Below, in pieces: positions 14,484-18,928 of a stretch of DNA of 64,000 nt. Source of the DNA: an uncultured bacterium (lineage in GTDB: Bacteria; Actinomycetota; Acidimicrobiia; Spongiisociales; UBA5794); NCBI GenBank assembly GCA_963801165.1, contig CAWDDT010000009.1, positions 416,001 through 480,000 on the forward strand, written 5' to 3'. A program made the translations under genes and the position numbers. Below the pieces are notes generated by a model, which was not told the origin of the DNA, did no database searches, and saw only the letters and a program-made list of their open reading frames with translations. How positions within the stretch are numbered: position 1 is the stretch's first letter; every line of letters starts with the position of its first letter.

Positions 14484-15950
14484 CTAGGAGGCGGCGTTGC
14501 GCCGTTGGGGCCGACCACGGGGGGTGGCGAAGGCGCCGTGTTCTTTGTCCCGGTCGTGCCGGATCGGGTGGCTACGCACAACCCGGCCGTCATGGGAGAT
14601 CTCGACGGTGTCGCCGACTACCCGTACCTGAACCGACTTGCCTCGATACTTGTTACCTGCCCGATAGGAGGCAGCTGCGAAGCTGATACTCCCCGACTGG
14701 TCGACCTTGCGGGTCACCGGCACCCCAGTGGTTTCTGGTCGGACCGGGCGGCCACGCCGCTGTCGTTGCCATGCGGCTGGTTCGTCCTCGACCGCATGCT
14801 GTCGGGCATGTGAGGTGATGAGTACTTCCCGATGCCATACCTCAACCAAACCACCGTTGATAGCCACCGTGACGGTCTCGCCGGCCAGCCAACGCCCCAC
14901 ATGGTATTTGTGACCGGCCAGGCTGATCCGGCCGCCTTGTCCCACCTTGCGGGTCACCCGCCGGACCCCATCTGCTGGTGGTGGCGGATCCGGTGGCAGC
15001 TGTGGCGCATCGTCGATCACGACCTCGAGCGGCACGCTCTTGGCTAGTTCGAAGCGACGGATCGGGGGCACCATCCCGATCCCCTGATGAGGCCGGGCAG
15101 TGTTGTAATGCTCCACCCACAAATCGAACTCTTGTTGGGCTTCCTCAATAGAGGCGAATACCCGGCCTTTCAGGAATTCGCTACGGATGGTCTTGTGGAA
15201 CCGTTCCACCTTCCCAGTCGTGGTCGGCGACCTCGGTGCCGTCAACAGATGATCTATCCCGTTTTCCCGACAGATCCGGTCAAACAACACCTCCCCAGAA
15301 CCCGGCCCGAACCGGCCAGTAAACACCTTCCCGTTATCAGTCAATACCTGATCAGGGACTCCATGGCGTCGCATCGCCAACGCCAACGCCTCACACACCG
15401 GCCTAGCCGTCGCCCTCCTCACTACCAGCGCCGAGACACAGAACCTCGAGTGGTCATCAACCCCGGTCACCACCTTCGCCTCCGAACCATCACCAAGTCG
15501 AACGCCACCCATCACATCCATCTGCCACAACTCCATCGACCGCGACCGCTCCCACCTTCGATACGACGACCTCGGCCTACGACGACGCCTCCTCTGCACC
15601 AAACCGTGACGCAGCAACGCCCGATAAATCCCCGACCTCGACGGCACCGGCACAATCCCCTCCTGCTCCAAGTGATACCGAATCGTGCGAGGTCCCCAAT
15701 CCGGATGAGCCCACCGCATCTCCACCACCCGCGCCTCAACCCGAGGCGGCATCTGATGCGGACACGAATGCGGCTTCGACGACCCATCCACCAAACCCTG
15801 CACCCCCGCATCCGCATAACACCTCAACCAGCGATGCACCGTCTGCCGGGCCACCCCATAACGACGAGCCACATCCGTCACCGCAGCTCCGCCCAAAACC
15901 TCCAACACCGCCTGGAATCGCTGCTCCACAACACCCAACTCCACCAACAC
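14484..15950 (-). CDS. IS481-family transposase
   Basis: MLVELGVVEQRFQAV, LWQMD, VDDHSRF, TDNG, GKVERFH; duplicated C-terminal VTRKV..G.IS module. Confidence 0.93.
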   Translation of the reverse strand: MLVELGVVEQRFQAVLEVLGGAAVTDVARRYGVARQTVHRWLRCYADAGVQGLVDGSSKPHSCPHQMPPRVEARVVEMRWAHPDWGPRTIRYHLEQEGIVPVPSRSGIYRALLRHGLVQRRRRRRPRSSYRRWERSRSMELWQMDVMGGVRLGDGSEAKVVTGVDDHSRFCVSALVVRRATARPVCEALALAMRRHGVPDQVLTDNGKVFTGRFGPGSGEVLFDRICRENGIDHLLTAPRSPTTTGKVERFHKTIRSEFLKGRVFASIEEAQQEFDLWVEHYNTARPHQGIGMVPPIRRFELAKSVPLEVVIDDAPQLPPDPPPPADGVRRVTRKVGQGGRISLAGHKYHVGRWLAGETVTVAINGGLVEVWHREVLITSHARQHAVEDEPAAWQRQRRGRPVRPETTGVPVTRKVDQSGSISFAAASYRAGNKYRGKSVQVRVVGDTVEISHDGRVVRSHPIRHDRDKEHGAFATPRGRPQRRNAAS

Positions 15951-15999
15951 AACAACCTCCTCCGATACCTCTCAGAGGAGCATGAACTGAAGCGCCCTG

Positions 16000-16245
16000 G
16001 GTTTGATGGAGACCGTTTTGTTTGGTCTTCTTTGTTGGCTGTGGTGGCTAGTTGAGCGTAGTGGTTCTCCTCGTGTTCGTCGGGTGGGATGTCGCCGCAG
16101 TGGCTGTGGAGCCGCTGGCTGTTGTACCAGTGCACCCAGGACAAGGTGGCGAGTTCGACCTCCTCGACCGTTCTCCAGGGTCCTTGATCGGGTCCAAGAT
16201 GAGCTCGGTCTTGTAGAGCCCGTTGATTGTCTCGGCCAGAGCATT
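16000..16245 (-). pseudogene. 3' part of the IS3 OrfB separated by IS110
   Basis: NALAETINGLYKTELI, then 1-nt shift, GPWRTVEEVELATLSWVHWYNSQRLHS. Confidence 0.85.
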
Positions 16246-16271
16246 GATGCTCCTATAGATCGCAAGTCGAC

Positions 16272-17354
16272 TCAGGCTGCTGGTCGAAGCTCGGTTGAGG
16301 TGCTTGGTTCGGGGAGTAGGTGGTAGAGCTCGCGGGCGACGAATCGTTTCAGGCAGCGGATGATGTCCTTTTTGGAGAGACCTTCGGCGGTGCGTCGTTT
16401 CACGTATGCGATGGTGGGTGGGTGCCATCGCATACGGACGATGATGACGCGGTAGAGCGCGGCGTTGGCTTGGCGGTTGCCGCCCCGGTTGAGACGATGA
16501 CGGCCGCTGGTTTTGCCCGACCCGGCGGGGATGGGGCAGGCGCCACAGAGTTTGGCGAAGGCGGCCTCGGAGCGGACTCGATCGGTGTTGTCACCGGCGG
16601 TGATGAGCATCTCAGCGGCGGTGTCGAACCCGACGCCGCATCGTTCCAGCATCTGAGGGGCGGCGGCTTTGGTGAGTTGTTTGAGGTGTGCAGTGTGGGC
16701 TTTGATCTCTTCGTGAAGGTTCAGGTAGCGGCGGGCGAGCGATGCCAGGCTGTGCCGGATCGCCACCTCGGGGTCGCTGATGTCGCCGTCGGTGTCGAGC
16801 TCGGCGCATGTCATGATCAGCTGGTGGTCGGTGAGCGGTTCGAGTGTTCCTCGTAGGTCGTCGGGAGCGGTGACCACCACCGTCTTGAGTGTGATCATGG
16901 TTGTGGTGTGCGCCTTCACGGCGGTGTCACGGGCGATCTTGATCAAACGGATCGCCTCGATCTGGCCGTCGGCGAGTTTCGGTGTGGCCGTGCCTTGGCC
17001 GGACAACACCGTCCGTGCCGCATGCTCGGCATCGATCGAGTCGCTCTTGCCTGACGTGCGACGTTCCCCACGTCGAGGCGGCCGTGCCACCTCGCGCACC
17101 GTCTGGTCGTGTCGACGAAGAAACCTCGCCAGTCCCGACCCATACGAGCCGCAGCCTTCGACACCAAAGGCGTGAACCGTCCCCAGGGTATGTGCCCAGT
17201 CGAGGAGCTCGGCGTAGCCGGCCGGGTTCGCTGCCACCAATAGTGGCTCGTCAACGAGGCCGCCGAGGCCGTCGATCGCCACTGCGACGTGTTGATCTTT
17301 GTGGGTGTCGACACCGATGATGACATCGGAACGTTCGAGTGCGATGCTGGTCAT
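16272..17354 (-). CDS. IS110 DEDD recombinase
   Basis: IGVDTHK, GVEGCGSYG, KSDSIDA, and Tnp domain AFAKLCGACPIPAGSG...RLNRGGNRQANAAL with catalytic Ser. Confidence 0.95.
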   Translation of the reverse strand: MTSIALERSDVIIGVDTHKDQHVAVAIDGLGGLVDEPLLVAANPAGYAELLDWAHTLGTVHAFGVEGCGSYGSGLARFLRRHDQTVREVARPPRRGERRTSGKSDSIDAEHAARTVLSGQGTATPKLADGQIEAIRLIKIARDTAVKAHTTTMITLKTVVVTAPDDLRGTLEPLTDHQLIMTCAELDTDGDISDPEVAIRHSLASLARRYLNLHEEIKAHTAHLKQLTKAAAPQMLERCGVGFDTAAEMLITAGDNTDRVRSEAAFAKLCGACPIPAGSGKTSGRHRLNRGGNRQANAALYRVIIVRMRWHPPTIAYVKRRTAEGLSKKDIIRCLKRFVARELYHLLPEPSTSTELRPAA

Positions 17355-17384
17355 GACTGTTGATCCTTCCGGTCGATGGTCTCC

Positions 17385-17590
17385 GTGCTCGCTTGGTCGG
17401 GCGGGAAGGACAGGACTGCGATGAGACCTGGGTCGATCAGGCTCCTATTAGGTCACTACCCGCTCGGCCGGCGAGACAACACACCGCGTCTCGGGTGACC
17501 GACACGTCAACGCAAGGACACAAGGTCGGTCATAACAAGGGTCAGGCCACCCGAGACAACAGCACCGAGAAGCATCTCATCTCGGCAACA
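17385..17590 (-). ncRNA. Predicted IS110 bridge RNA (5' hairpin, target-binding loop, donor-binding loop)
   Basis: Hairpin 17565-17585; 13-bp stem 17488-17500/17545-17557 enclosing guides matching the target; stem ~17388-17405/17459-17475 enclosing guides matching the circle junction. Ends approximate. Confidence 0.8.
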
Positions 17591-17601
17591 GGATCCTCGC
17601 A

Positions 17602-18273
17602 GTCATACGAGTCGCCGACCGACCCGATCGATGGGACAGCACCGAGTTCGGCGAGTCGTTCTCCGTAGCGGATCGACGTAAATTGCGACCCGGCATCGGA
17701 ATGAGTCACTAACCCTTCCAGGTTCGTGCCTCGGGACCAGCGGGCCATCTCGAGGGCGTCGAGCACAATCTCGGCACGCATATTGGCGGCGACCCGCCAG
17801 GCGACGATCTTGCGTGAGAACGCGTCGGTGATAAAACACACATACCCAAACCCGGACCAGGTGGCCACATAGGTCAGATCAACCACCCACAGCCGATTAG
17901 GCCGCTCTGCGGTGAACTGACGGTTGACCAGATCAGGCGGCCTCACAGCAGAAGGATCCGGTTTGGTGGTACGAACCCGCCGTCCCCTCGTCACACCCTT
18001 GATTTCGAGGCGTTTCATCAACCTGGCGGTCTGATCCCGGCCAATATCGATGCCATCACGAAGCGCCGCCTTCCACAGCTTCCGAGCGCCATAGACCTTC
18101 CGGTTCGCCATCCACAGCGTCAACAACAGCGGCATCAGGATCTGGTCCCGAAGCTCCCGAACCGACGGTGGCCGGCTCTTAGCGGCGTAATAGGTAGAAG
18201 GGGCCAACTGCAACTGGGTGCAGATGGGCTCGACCCCGAACTCGTCACGATTCTCATCAACGAACTTCACCAT
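17602..18273 (-). pseudogene. 5' part of IS3 OrfB (DDE), interrupted
   Basis: FGVEPIC, VYGARK, LWVVDLTYV, HSDAGSQF, SIGSVGDSYD then the IS110 junction. Confidence 0.9.
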
Positions 18274-18605
18274 TACTTCTGTGGGCGGTCGAGCTCCGCA
18301 GCGAAAAAAGCCGAAGCCCGCTTCAAGATCTCATTCGCTCGACGCAACTCACGATTCTCCTGCCGCAGCTGCCTCAACTCCGTCTGATCCTCACTAGTCG
18401 TCCCCGAACGCTCACCGCTATCGATCTCGTCCTGTCGCACCCACGACCGCAAAGACTCGACCCCGCAGCCCAACTGGTCAGCAACCCGCTTGATCCCGCC
18501 AGTCCTCTGCCCCGTCTCGGCACGCAGCTGACGCACCATCCGTACCCCACGCTCTTTAAACTCCGCCGAATACCGCCGTCTCGTTCCATCACCCTGATAA
18601 TCCAT
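18273..18605 (-). CDS. IS3 transposase OrfA
   Basis: RRYSAEFKERGVRMV, ENRELRRANEILKRASAFFAAELDRP; slippery TTTTTTC near 18303-18309. Confidence 0.9.
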   Translation of the reverse strand: MDYQGDGTRRRYSAEFKERGVRMVRQLRAETGQRTGGIKRVADQLGCGVESLRSWVRQDEIDSGERSGTTSEDQTELRQLRQENRELRRANEILKRASAFFAAELDRPQK

Positions 18606-18928
18606 AGACTCCATCCTCACTTCAAAACTCAGGAGTCTCCACTATTCCCAGGGCGATTCAATGTCCATCATGAACCGAAACAGGACATCCACAGGGTCCA
18701 GCACCGCCGCGACGTCTACCGACCACGGTGATCAACCTCCCGTCAACGTGACCGATCGCCCGGATACAGTGGGTAGTCGCCCTGCCGAGCAGCGAAGTGC
18801 CGATCTCGGACACCCGGCGACGTGCTCATTATCGGGCGAGAATTGTTGATCTAGGACGGGACCGAGGGTGTTCCATGCGAAGGTCCGGTCCTGTGTTTCT
18901 TCGGAGGTAATGCCTTCGGCGGTGTTGA

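What the first reader, a model, noticed from the sequence alone, without database searches (positions are those of the whole stretch)
16246..17601. IS110 bridge RNA apparently programmed against the conserved YDNA codons of IS3 transposases
Seen (minus strand): reconstructed target TCGTATGAC-AATGC and donor junction ATAGGAGCATC-TGCGA. The 247-nt leader has a 13-bp stem enclosing TATGAC (17529-17534, equals left target) and GCGTTG (17508-17513, pairs with CAATGC via one G-T wobble), and a second stem enclosing ATAGGAGC (17441-17448, left donor) and TCGCAG (17416-17421, pairs with CTGCGA). This matches the established IS621 bridge RNA layout. Target and donor share only one core base (CA vs CT). 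Inference: an RNA-guided hyperparasite that targets the motif just before the catalytic Glu of IS3-family transposases, gaining multicopy safe sites while disabling them.
Basis: partly seen in the sequence, partly recalled or inferred. Interest (0 to 1): 0.75.

Follow-up and report, generated by a model that had tools for sequence, protein, structure and literature searches.

The report
IS110 element aimed at IS3 transposase
A small RNA-guided jumping gene sits inside another jumping gene's transposase, and its guide RNA and about thirty relatives show that this lineage regularly aims at the same four conserved codons, a habit already published for one related element at a different IS3 site.

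Summary
Window 16246-17601 (minus strand) is a 1356-bp IS110-family element. It has an intact 360-aa recombinase and a 247-nt leader, and it splits an IS3 orfB exactly between codons ..GDSYD and NALAE...

Relatives show this is not chance. Of 45 close-clade insertions, 33 lie at the same D|N junction of IS3-type transposases that are only 30-70% identical to each other. Seven lie in other DNA and 5 are undetermined. Across 22 distinct left and 17 distinct right target guides, loop sequence follows flank sequence (0 of 20000 shuffles each). The target-loop stem has compensatory changes in 12 of 16 pairs.

It is a bridge/seekRNA-guided IS110 whose natural target is the YD|NA codons of IS3. The idea is not new. 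ISEc21 is 44% identical and has the same target-loop scaffold. It was shown experimentally to target the codons around the second catalytic D of IS3 (Siddiquee 2024).

What is new:
- the target site;
- the breadth of the clade;
- G/U guide bases at synonymous positions;
- a core in which only one C is shared.

The parts
16246..17601 (-). Whole IS110-family element, 1356 bp, single copy in the own genome
   Evidence: The junctions are read. The same ends (TGYGA... / ...ATAGGAGCWTC) occur in relatives. It is the only copy in G000. No terminal inverted repeat appears among the 25 longest inverted pairs shown.
16272..17354 (-). Recombinase gene, 360 aa, intact
   Evidence: Pfam DEDD_Tnp_IS110 plus Transposase_20. 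NCBIfam NF033542 scores 159.3 bits against a cut-off of 140. D16, E66, D105 and D108 are invariant and S279 is nearly invariant. A profile search aligns them to IS621 8WT6 (E 6.8e-16).
17593..17601 (-). Left end: right-donor bases TGCGAG and the -10-like hexamer GAGGAT (17598-17593)
   Evidence: The family consensus of the left end is TGCGAtgAT. The window's hexamer matches TATAAT at 3 of 6 positions (my reading).
17564..17586 (-). 5' hairpin of the leader
   Evidence: Minimum-free-energy fold. It is absent in some relatives (alignment).
17488..17557 (-). Target-binding loop module: 13-bp outer stem, internal loop, small distal hairpin
   Evidence: Consensus fold. In the outer helix, 12 of 16 pairs have changes on both sides and 92.8% of cells are paired. 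Covariance model R1 scores 80.6 bits here.
17529..17537 (-). Left target guide UGUUAUGAC (equals the top strand of the left target, positions 1-9)
   Evidence: 120 of 154 guide-flank positions are identical over 22 distinct guides, against a shuffle mean of 56.2, with 0 of 20000 shuffles as high.
17507..17513 (-). Right target guide GCGUUG, which pairs with the top strand CAAYGC, plus an A at 17507 that faces core position 8
   Evidence: 71 of 102 positions identical over 17 distinct guides, 0 of 20000 shuffles as high. The A is present in 47 of 47 distinct rows.
17408..17461 (-). Donor-binding loop module
   Evidence: Conserved in the alignment. Stem pairs are kept (92.8% paired) but none is compensatory, so the exact pairing is open.
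17441..17448 (-). Left donor guide AUAGGAGC (equals right-end bases 16256-16249)
   Evidence: For 5 distinct guides, 39 of 40 positions are identical, and 324 of 20000 shuffles are as high. G-to-A and C-to-A changes occur together in guide and right end in L014, L040, L045/L050 and L047/L048.
17414..17423 (-). Right donor guide CAUCGCAG, which pairs with C+TGCGA of the left end, followed by UC facing positions 8 and 7
   Evidence: All 4 loci with TGTGA at the left end (L009, L010, L020, L021) have CACAG in the guide. U faces position 8 in 47 of 47 rows. The next base is complementary to target position 7 in 43 of 47 rows.
16246..16265 (-). Right end: -35-like TTGCGA (16265-16260) and left donor ATAGGAGCATC (16256-16246)
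   Evidence: The family consensus is cTtgacATcTATAGGAGCaTC over 51 distinct right ends. The window copy lacks one base of the TTGAC box (my reading).
17602..17610 (-). Left target TCGTATGAC (codons S-Y-D of IS3 orfB)
16241..16245 (-). Right target AATGC (codons N-A of IS3 orfB)
17602..18273 (-). IS3 orfB, N-terminal 224 codons (rve domain)
   Evidence: Pfam rve plus HTH_21. NCBIfam transpos_IS3 scores 237.6 bits.
16040..16245 (-). IS3 orfB C-terminal part (NALAET...), with a further frame change near 16190-16200. The low-coordinate end is approximate.
   Evidence: Three-frame translation, compared with the sister copy.
18199..18620 (-). IS3 orfA (18273-18620) and the ALIL frameshift pseudoknot (18199-18312)
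   Evidence: Pfam HTH_Tnp_1. Rfam RF01497 scores 83.6 bits, E 3.9e-21.

Best explanation
Window 16246-17601 is an IS110-type insertion sequence. It chooses its insertion site with a bridge (seek) RNA encoded in its 247-nt leader.

**Target recognition.** One internal loop carries two guides.
- UGUUAUGAC is identical to the top strand of the left target, so it pairs with the bottom strand.

Together they read TGY-TAY-GAC|AAY-GC, the C/S-Y-D|N-A codons of IS3-family transposases.

**Donor recognition.** A second loop carries AUAGGAGC and CAUCGCAG. These read the element's own joined ends.

**Strand exchange.** By analogy with IS621, the DEDD/Ser recombinase exchanges the top strands after the shared C (position 9). 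Position 8 is A in targets and T in donors. The guide bases that face it on the top strand are complementary to the incoming partner, not to the resident one. This is the published 'handshake' logic reaching into the core.

**Consequence.** Insertion is co-oriented with orfB and separates the two catalytic Asp from the NAxxE block, so the host IS3 copy loses its transposase.

**Shown versus inferred.**
- Shown: anatomy, insertion sites, covariation, homology to ISEc21 and IS621.
- Inferred: expression of the RNA, the chemistry, and the benefit of using IS3 as a landing site.
For: **Protein.** Both IS110 domains are present. The NCBIfam 'IS110 family RNA-guided transposase' model is passed above its cut-off. 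D16/E66/D105/D108/S279 align to IS621 D11/E60/D102/D105/S241 (the chain numbering is offset by 2).

**Sites.** 24 of 80 fetched loci give tblastn matches to the window's orfB halves that stop or start exactly at the junction. In the close clade, 31 of 45 insertions meet a motif test for an IS3-type D|N(A/P)xxE context. Two more (L006, L015) are IS3 remnants. Seven are in other DNA and 5 are undetermined. The host orfBs are 30-70% identical to the window's. L005 and L006 are 100% identical elements in two different IS3 types of one contig, with flanks 57% and 62% identical. A cultured example is Rhodococcus rhodochrous plasmid NZ_CP083975.1, GDSYD|NAMAE.

**Guides.** The left and right target guides follow their flanks, including in a sister clade with quite different targets. 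Natural retargeting is seen: L031 and L038 have GGAUUG/GGGUUG guides and AATCC right flanks.

**Structure.** The target-loop stem covaries.

**Homology to a tested system.** ISEc21 is 43.5% identical over residues 11-347 (E 3e-79). Model R1, built without it, hits its leader at 39.7 bits (E 1e-8). That leader region was shown to be required and reprogrammable (PMC11187229, section 12).

**Junction promoter.** TTGAC(A) in the right end and GATGAT in the left end are conserved, as described for IS621 (passages).
Against:
- Rfam has no model that hits the leader.
- The donor-loop stem has no compensatory pairs.
- The left donor guide match ends 3 bases before the crossover, unlike IS621, where it reaches position 8.
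- The right donor guide test over 7 positions is no better than shuffles (9283 of 20000). Only the C/T position covaries.
- The base after the right target guide is complementary to donor position 7 in only 11 of 39 rows.
- The 11-mer is not specific to IS3: 10 copies in the own genome, 1 of them in an IS3.
- Seven of 45 relatives sit outside IS3.
- The window copy is single, has a weakened -35/-10 pair, and shows no sigma-70-like promoter inside.
- A perfect empty site in the same genome is unused.
Confidence: 0.9

Rival explanations
1. The guide-directed aim is real, but IS3 is not an evolved niche. The element inserts wherever the ~14-nt word occurs. Copies in host genes are lost by selection, so survivors pile up in IS3 copies, which are dispensable and multicopy.
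For: The own genome has 10 TAYGACAAYGC sites, 9 of them in ordinary reading frames. Seven of 45 relatives are in non-IS3 look-alike sites.
Against: The clade has kept this target through 24 tree rows with 100/100 support, in records labelled as six or more phyla. U sits at the Tyr third-base position in 24 of 32 guides, and G faces the Asn third base in 22 of 28. These are the bases that pair with either synonymous variant, which suggests tuning to a coding target. The two readings are not exclusive.
Confidence: 0.3
2. The window copy is an inactive relic. It arrived once, perhaps with its IS3 carrier, and no longer moves.
For: It is the only copy in G000. An unoccupied, fully matching site, TCGTATGAC|AACGC, exists in the sister IS3 on contig C6. 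The -35 box lacks a base relative to the family consensus and the -10 box is GAGGAT. The host IS3 has a second frame change.
Against: The 360-aa frame is open with all five catalytic residues. All four guides are intact and match their targets.
Confidence: 0.35
3. One ancient insertion into an ancestral IS3 was inherited as a composite, so the shared site reflects descent rather than targeting.
For: L011 and L012 carry the same IS3::IS110 composite at 99.8% identity over 2653 bp, with different DNA beyond the IS3 end on the right. So composites do get copied, or identical IS3 copies get hit twice.
Against: Identical elements lie in unrelated IS3 types (L005/L006). Insertions occur in non-IS3 DNA. 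An empty site exists. Host orfBs are far more diverged (30-70% aa) than the elements (64-80% aa) yet mostly still read open across 224 codons. Guides change together with changed flanks.
Confidence: 0.03
4. The recombinase protein alone recognises the site, and the loop matches are coincidence.
For: None specific. Only the window's own four short matches could be coincidence if taken alone.
Against: Covariation of both target guides exceeds all of 20000 shuffles. ISEc21 needs its leader RNA and can be reprogrammed.
Confidence: 0.02

Closest known systems
ISEc21 (IS110 type; seekRNA; Siddiquee et al. 2024, PMC11187229)
   Same: - The non-coding region lies upstream of the recombinase.
- The recombinase is 43.5% identical over residues 11-347.
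- The target-loop scaffold is the same, CUGAC...CGAC..GUC...CUGUCGG (R1 hit 39.7 bits).
- The natural target is a conserved codon block of IS3-family orfB, and insertion makes no duplication (section 12).
- In the copy I read (L118), the right-target side of the loop is complementary to donor positions 7-9 plus the right target: 11 nt, against 8 for the intact target.
   Different: - ISEc21 sits at FHSD|QGSHY, the second D of DDE. The window's clade sits about 35 codons downstream, at YD|NA.
- The donor ends differ (AGTAATAAT... / ...AGAAGGGCGTC).
- In the tree it lies outside the YD|NA clade, with lineages of other targets in between. This carries a long-branch caveat.
IS621 bridge RNA system (Durrant et al. 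2024, PMC11208160; Hiraizumi et al. 2024, PMC11208158)
   Same: - The leader holds a 5' hairpin, a target loop and a donor loop, in the order LTG, RTG, LDG, RDG.
- Left guides equal the top strand and right guides pair with it.
- The LTG is 9 nt and reaches the crossover.
- The catalytic set is DEDD plus Ser.
- The right end carries a -35 box and the left end a -10 box.
- Handshake-type complementarity to the non-cognate partner is present at position 7 (43 of 47 rows on the donor-loop side).
   Different: - IS621 and its near relatives have a CT core shared by target and donor, with T9 almost invariant. Here position 9 is C (47 of 47 targets, 39 of 39 donors) and position 8 is A in targets (44 of 47) but T in donors (39 of 39).
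- The LDG match stops 3 bases short of the crossover.
- The proteins are too distant for a single-sequence search, and are linked only by profile.
- IS621 targets REP sequences.
Other IS110/IS1111 elements that land in other mobile elements (IS1383 in the inverted repeats of IS1384; IS4321/IS5075 in Tn21-type inverted repeats; IS1111-attC group)
   Same: They are site-specific IS110-superfamily elements that use conserved parts of other mobile elements as landing sites.
   Different: Those targets are terminal repeats or attC sites, not coding codons. IS1383/IS1384 I saw only as a title in a reference list. IS4321/IS5075 is recalled. The attC group is named in passages.

Membership tests
IS110 family (DEDD recombinase insertion sequences) | N-terminal RuvC-like DEDD domain plus C-terminal Tnp domain | tested here: met
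   PF01548 (E 4.8e-16) and PF02371 (E 3.8e-16). NF033542 scores 159.3 bits against a cut-off of 140.
IS110 family (DEDD recombinase insertion sequences) | Catalytic D, E, D, D and Ser present | tested here: met
   D16, E66, D105, D108 and S279 are conserved in 12 aligned relatives. They align to the IS621 catalytic residues in 8WT6.
IS110 family (DEDD recombinase insertion sequences) | No terminal inverted repeats and no target duplication | tested here: met
   No inverted pair joins the two termini among the 25 longest of 38 pairs. The flanks rejoin to an uninterrupted SYDNA reading frame with no duplicated bases.
Bridge RNA / seekRNA of IS110-type elements | Long non-coding leader upstream of the recombinase, with two structured modules | tested here: met
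   247-nt leader. The target module has a covarying stem. The donor module is conserved but has no compensatory pairs.
Bridge RNA / seekRNA of IS110-type elements | Loop segments covary with target flanks: left guide equals the top strand, right guide is complementary to the top strand | tested here: met
   0 of 20000 shuffles reach the observed match for either guide.
Bridge RNA / seekRNA of IS110-type elements | Loop segments match the element's own joined ends | tested here: met
   LDG: 39 of 40 positions identical over 5 distinct variants (324 of 20000 shuffles as high). RDG: the C/T covariation holds in 4 of 4 loci, but the 7-nt test is not significant.
Bridge RNA / seekRNA of IS110-type elements | [quoted passage not shown] | not testable with these tools
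   Only the conserved -35 and -10 boxes are seen.
IS621-like subgroup with a shared CT core | The same CT dinucleotide at positions 8-9 of target and donor | tested here: not met
   The core is AC in the target and TC in the donor, and only C9 is shared. The element works like IS621 but should not be filed in the CT-core subgroup.
ISEc21-like subgroup | Recombinase and target-loop RNA homologous to ISEc21 | tested here: met
   43.5% identity, E 3e-79. R1 hit on the ISEc21 leader at 39.7 bits.
ISEc21-like subgroup | Target is the codons around the second D of the IS3 DDE motif | tested here: not met
   The target here is YD|NA, not HSD|QG.
Rfam families | A match of the leader to any curated RNA family | tested here: not met
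   An E-value scan of 15500-18800 gave only ALIL in the IS3 and three chance-level hits.

The most novel reading that the evidence does not exclude
IS3-family elements are a recurrent niche for RNA-guided IS110 elements.

**Separate lineages, separate sites.** Different lineages have each programmed their target loop against a different conserved feature of IS3:
- the HSD codons (ISEc21);
- the YD|NA codons (this clade, found in records labelled as many phyla);
- possibly the frameshift/ALIL stem (the second element in this same genome).

**Adaptation to a coding target.** The YD|NA clade places U and G at the synonymous third-base positions, so that one guide reads all codon variants.

**Handshake in the core.** A first core position that differs between target and donor is read by handshake bases, which biases the reaction toward insertion.
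Probability: 0.4. Interest if true: 0.65.

Novelty: new member of a known kind. Interest (0 to 1): 0.5.

Why it matters
It adds a second, well-populated natural case of an RNA-guided transposon that parasitises another transposon family by reading conserved codons. The clade has many natural guide/target pairs, so it can serve as a ready-made data set for three questions:
- the rules of bridge-RNA targeting, including wobble tolerance at degenerate positions;
- handshake pairing;
- tolerance of a non-identical first core base.

For genome annotation, it explains a common pattern: IS3 orfB pseudogenes split at YD|NA by an IS110 gene. For IS ecology, it suggests that IS110 elements may limit IS3 activity while riding on its copy number and mobility.

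Tried and rejected
**Searches that gave nothing**
- Rfam scan of the region: no bridge-RNA family, only ALIL.
- Single-sequence PDB search: no hit. A profile was needed.
- Sigma-70 scan of the integrated element: 0 promoter-like sites.

**Donor-loop structure**
- RNAalifold's donor-loop pairing (AGGA with UCCU) and my IS621-like alternative could not be told apart. Both have the same 3 broken rows by my reading, and the alternative has no compensatory pairs.
- I looked for a looped-out continuation of the left donor guide (GGAGC..AUC). It is not consistent across relatives (my reading), so I rejected it.

**Second IS110 element**
- I checked whether the second IS110 (contig C6) belongs to a lineage that habitually targets the IS3 frameshift stem. 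Among 29 related loci from 23 other genomes, none is flanked by IS3 orfA and orfB on both sides; L110 merely lies beside an IS3. This is not supported with this sample.

**Literature**
- Five full-text searches and one preprint check found only ISEc21 as an IS3-targeting IS110. They found no mention of the YD|NA site.
Durrant's Supplementary Data 2 (target motifs by guide bin) and Siddiquee's Supplementary Figs 11-12 may bear on novelty, and I did not see them.

**What I saw of each paper**
- PMC11208160: passages and section 7.
- PMC11187229: passages and section 12.
- PMC11208158: passages and section 8.
- PMC13626964: passages.
- 10.64898/2026.08.31.748434: abstract and outline only.
- 10.64898/2026.10.21.760802: passages.
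- All other titles: search listings only.

**Rows dropped**
- The tree used 54 distinct rows. These came from 60 sources with a single full-length match without stops, out of 83 sources (the window, 80 loci, L117, L118).
- L058 was left out of the RDG test and because of an insertion in its donor loop.
- The guide tests used one row per distinct guide.
- L064 was dropped from the protein alignment.
Full report
**What is there.**
Read on the minus strand, the window holds an IS3-family element. It has orfA at 18273-18620, the ALIL frameshift pseudoknot at 18199-18312 (83.6 bits), and an orfB with an rve domain. After 224 codons, orfB stops being IS3 at ...GGC GAC TCG TAT GAC. It resumes 1356 bp later at AAT GCT CTG GCC GAG.

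The intervening 16246-17601 has a 247-nt non-coding leader and a 360-aa gene. The gene carries DEDD_Tnp_IS110 and Transposase_20 domains. It passes NCBI's 'IS110 family RNA-guided transposase' model at 159.3 bits against a cut-off of 140.

A profile of 12 relatives matches the solved IS621 recombinase (E 6.8e-16). It lines up D16, E66, D105, D108 and S279 with the IS621 catalytic residues. The insertion duplicates nothing. No terminal inverted repeat is among the inverted pairs listed. The element is the only copy in its genome.

Every motif is at the stated coordinates:
- the 13-bp stem (17545-17557 with 17488-17500);
- UAUGAC at 17534-17529;
- GCGUUG at 17513-17508;
- AUAGGAGC at 17448-17441;
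- UCGCAG at 17421-17416.

On the window alone these are four short matches. The test is in relatives.

**Relatives.**
A scan of one genome per species found 104 stretches that encode a relative. The best 80 were kept. I searched these loci with the two halves of the window's orfB as separate queries. This gave 24 loci in which an IS3 orfB match ends at residue 224 or restarts at the next residue. The junctions read TAYGAC|TGYGA... and ...ATAGGAGCWTC|AAYGC.

The close clade is the window plus 44 loci, all 58% or more identical in protein. A motif test gave this tally:

| Context of the insertion | Count of 45 |
|---|---|
| IS3-type D\|N(A/P)xxE context | 31 |
| Decayed IS3 contexts (L006, L015) | 2 |
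| Other DNA that resembles the target word (e.g. ATATGAC\|AAAGC, CTGAC\|AATGC) | 7 |
| Cannot be judged | 5 |

The host transposases range from 70% down to about 30% identity with the window's orfB. They include the GDSYD|NALAE, GDCYD|NAPMESFW and GVCWD|NAATESFW types.

These are separate insertion events. L005 and L006 are 100% identical elements in two different IS3 types on one contig. The own genome holds a sister IS3 with the site still empty, GATTCGTATGAC|AACGCACTC. A cultured, named example is Rhodococcus rhodochrous plasmid NZ_CP083975.1.

**The RNA.**
Aligned leaders share a scaffold. In order it has:
- an outer stem;
- CUGAC;
- a variable 5' loop segment;
- a small hairpin;
- a variable 3' loop segment;
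- CUGUCGG and the returning stem.

The outer stem has changes on both sides in 12 of 16 pairs, and 92.8% of cells are paired. For the whole structure, no shuffle of 500 reaches the observed covariation, and slid registers drop to 34-46% paired.

The 5' variable segment equals the nine bases left of the insertion. The 3' segment is the reverse complement of the shared C plus the five to seven bases to the right. This also holds in a sister clade (about 53% identical, Dehalococcoidia records) whose targets are quite different, for example GGGTAAC or GATGCAAC on the left.

Guide tests with one row per distinct guide:

| Guide | Distinct guides | Positions identical | Shuffle result |
|---|---|---|---|
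| Left target guide | 22 | 120 of 154 | mean 56.2; 0 of 20000 as high |
| Right target guide | 17 | 71 of 102 | mean 35.5; 0 of 20000 as high |
| Left donor guide | 5 | 39 of 40 | 324 of 20000 as high |
| Right donor guide (7 nt) | 6 | 36 of 42 | 9283 of 20000 as high |

Two close-clade members (L031, L038) have right guides GGAUUG/GGGUUG and right flanks AATCC instead of AAYGC. L038 sits at ND|NPYSE of another integrase-type gene. This is natural retargeting.

In the donor loop, AUAGGAGC follows changes in the right end (GAAGC, AAGAGC, GGAGA variants). All 4 loci with TGTGA at the left end have CACAG in the guide. The 7-nt right donor test is not significant, and the donor stem shows no compensatory change.

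**Core and handshake.**
In the IS621 numbering, position 9 is the last base before the top-strand cut (passages read). Here it is C in 47 of 47 targets and 39 of 39 donors. Position 8 is A in 44 of 47 targets (G in 3) but T in 39 of 39 donors.

The base after the right target guide is A in 47 of 47 rows. It is complementary to the donor's T8, not to the target's A8. The base after the right donor guide is U in 47 of 47 rows, complementary to the target's A8. The next base is complementary to target position 7 in 43 of 47 rows. On the target-loop side, the matching figure for donor position 7 is only 11 of 39.

This is the pattern that Hiraizumi et al. call handshake guides. These are bases that pair with the incoming top strand after exchange and favour insertion (passages). 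In this clade the pattern also covers the first core position. That step is my inference. These columns are invariant, so it cannot be tested by covariation.

**Wobble at synonymous sites.**
Among 32 distinct close-clade insertions, the left guide has U opposite the third base of the Tyr codon in 24. Of these, 9 are on TAT, 14 on TAC and 1 on G. Among the 28 insertions with a readable right flank, the right guide has G opposite the third base of the Asn codon in 22: 16 on AAC and 6 on AAT. U and G are the two bases that can pair with either synonymous variant. This fits a guide tuned to a coding target, but it is suggestive only.

**Junction promoter.**
Right ends share cTTGAC(A) 14-15 bases from the end, and left ends share TGCGATGAT. 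Joined in a circle, these would give a -35 and a -10 box, as reported for IS621 and ISEc21.

The window copy has TTGCGA and GAGGAT, a weaker pair. The integrated element has no sigma-70-like site. Together with the single copy and the unused empty site, this leaves open whether this copy still moves.

**Comparison with what is known.**
Siddiquee et al. showed that ISEc21 is an IS110-type element with an upstream non-coding region. [quoted passage not shown] It needs the RNA and can be reprogrammed (section 12).

ISEc21 is 43.5% identical to the window's recombinase. A covariance model of the target loop, built without ISEc21, finds its leader at 39.7 bits. In the copy I read, it sits at FHSD|QGSHY. 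Its left guide matches 9 of 9 bases. Its right side matches 11 bases of donor positions 7-9 plus the right target.

In a tree of 54 rows, the YD|NA elements form one clade of 24 rows (100/100). The retargeted and look-alike insertions are nested inside it. ISEc21 lies elsewhere, with lineages of other targets in between. This reading depends on a midpoint root and a long ISEc21 branch, so the placement is tentative.

The window element therefore works like IS621 and ISEc21 and belongs to the ISEc21-like part of the family. It does not meet the shared-CT-core feature of the IS621 subgroup, and its site differs from that of ISEc21.

**Is IS3 the aim or the survivor?**
The 11-mer TAYGACAAYGC occurs 10 times in the own genome (the reversed control occurs 5 times). 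Only one of these is in an IS3. Yet most related insertions are in IS3-type genes. Either insertions elsewhere are purged, or IS3 sites are preferred. The data cannot separate these two readings. The long retention of the target and the wobble bases lean toward an evolved niche.

**Verdict.**
The finding is a new, widespread member of a known kind, at a new IS3 site. It is not a new principle.

There is therefore no expression evidence, and no earlier notes were used.

Noticed in passing
L084 47-1502 (G000 contig C6, about 520689-522144); sister IS3 in L083/L084: A second IS3 copy in the same genome (75% nt identity to the window's) keeps an empty YD|NA site. It is split in its frameshift/ALIL stem (GGTCGAGCT|CCGCCGC) by a different 1456-bp IS110-family element, in the opposite orientation, with CT at both junctions. 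That element's transposase is broken into two ORFs. Its leader holds, in order, GGUCGAG, GGCGGAG, GGUGGGAUG and GCCAUUAG, which match the left target, CT plus right target, left donor, and CT plus right donor. None of 29 relatives in 23 other genomes is flanked by IS3 on both sides.
   Followed up: partly
window 16190-16200: The C-terminal part of the interrupted IS3 orfB changes frame between ...KTELI and GPDQGPWRTVEEVE, relative to the sister copy. The host IS3 is therefore decayed beyond the IS110 insertion.
   Followed up: partly
window 14484-15950 (minus strand): An IS481-family transposase gene (488 aa, NF033577 299 bits) lies directly next to the IS3's right part, so this stretch is a cluster of three insertion sequences.
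   Followed up: no
L024 (1271 and 2594): The left flank is a GSKGDSYD-type IS3 and the right flank is a NAPVESFWGSMQ-type IS3. The two flanks come from different IS3 subgroups. This could be recombination between two element copies or an assembly chimera.
   Followed up: no
L055 239-316 and 614-692; L002 4-81; L022 30-105: The target-loop model finds two tandem loop modules upstream of one recombinase gene in L055. In L002 and L022 it finds a module about 1.4 kb upstream of the gene, which suggests extra DNA inside those leaders.
   Followed up: no
L011 211-2862 and L012 3-2655: The same IS3::IS110 composite occurs twice in one metagenome-assembled genome, at 99.8% identity. The similarity ends at the IS3's right end. 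Either the composite was copied as a unit or twin IS3 copies were each hit.
   Followed up: partly
L040-L057 (Dehalococcoidia records): The sister clade's right flanks often contain TTGAGGCA-like words (e.g. GTTTTTGTTGAGGCA). Its left flanks recur as GGTAAC or GCAAC, which look like repeated intergenic elements. I did not examine what these targets are.
   Followed up: no
plasmid collection: ISEc21-like recombinase genes (about 44% identical to the window's) occur in many Enterobacterales plasmids. By first word of the organism name, the matching records include 709 Klebsiella, 149 Salmonella and 134 Escherichia. I checked the insertion context in one record only (L118).
   Followed up: partly
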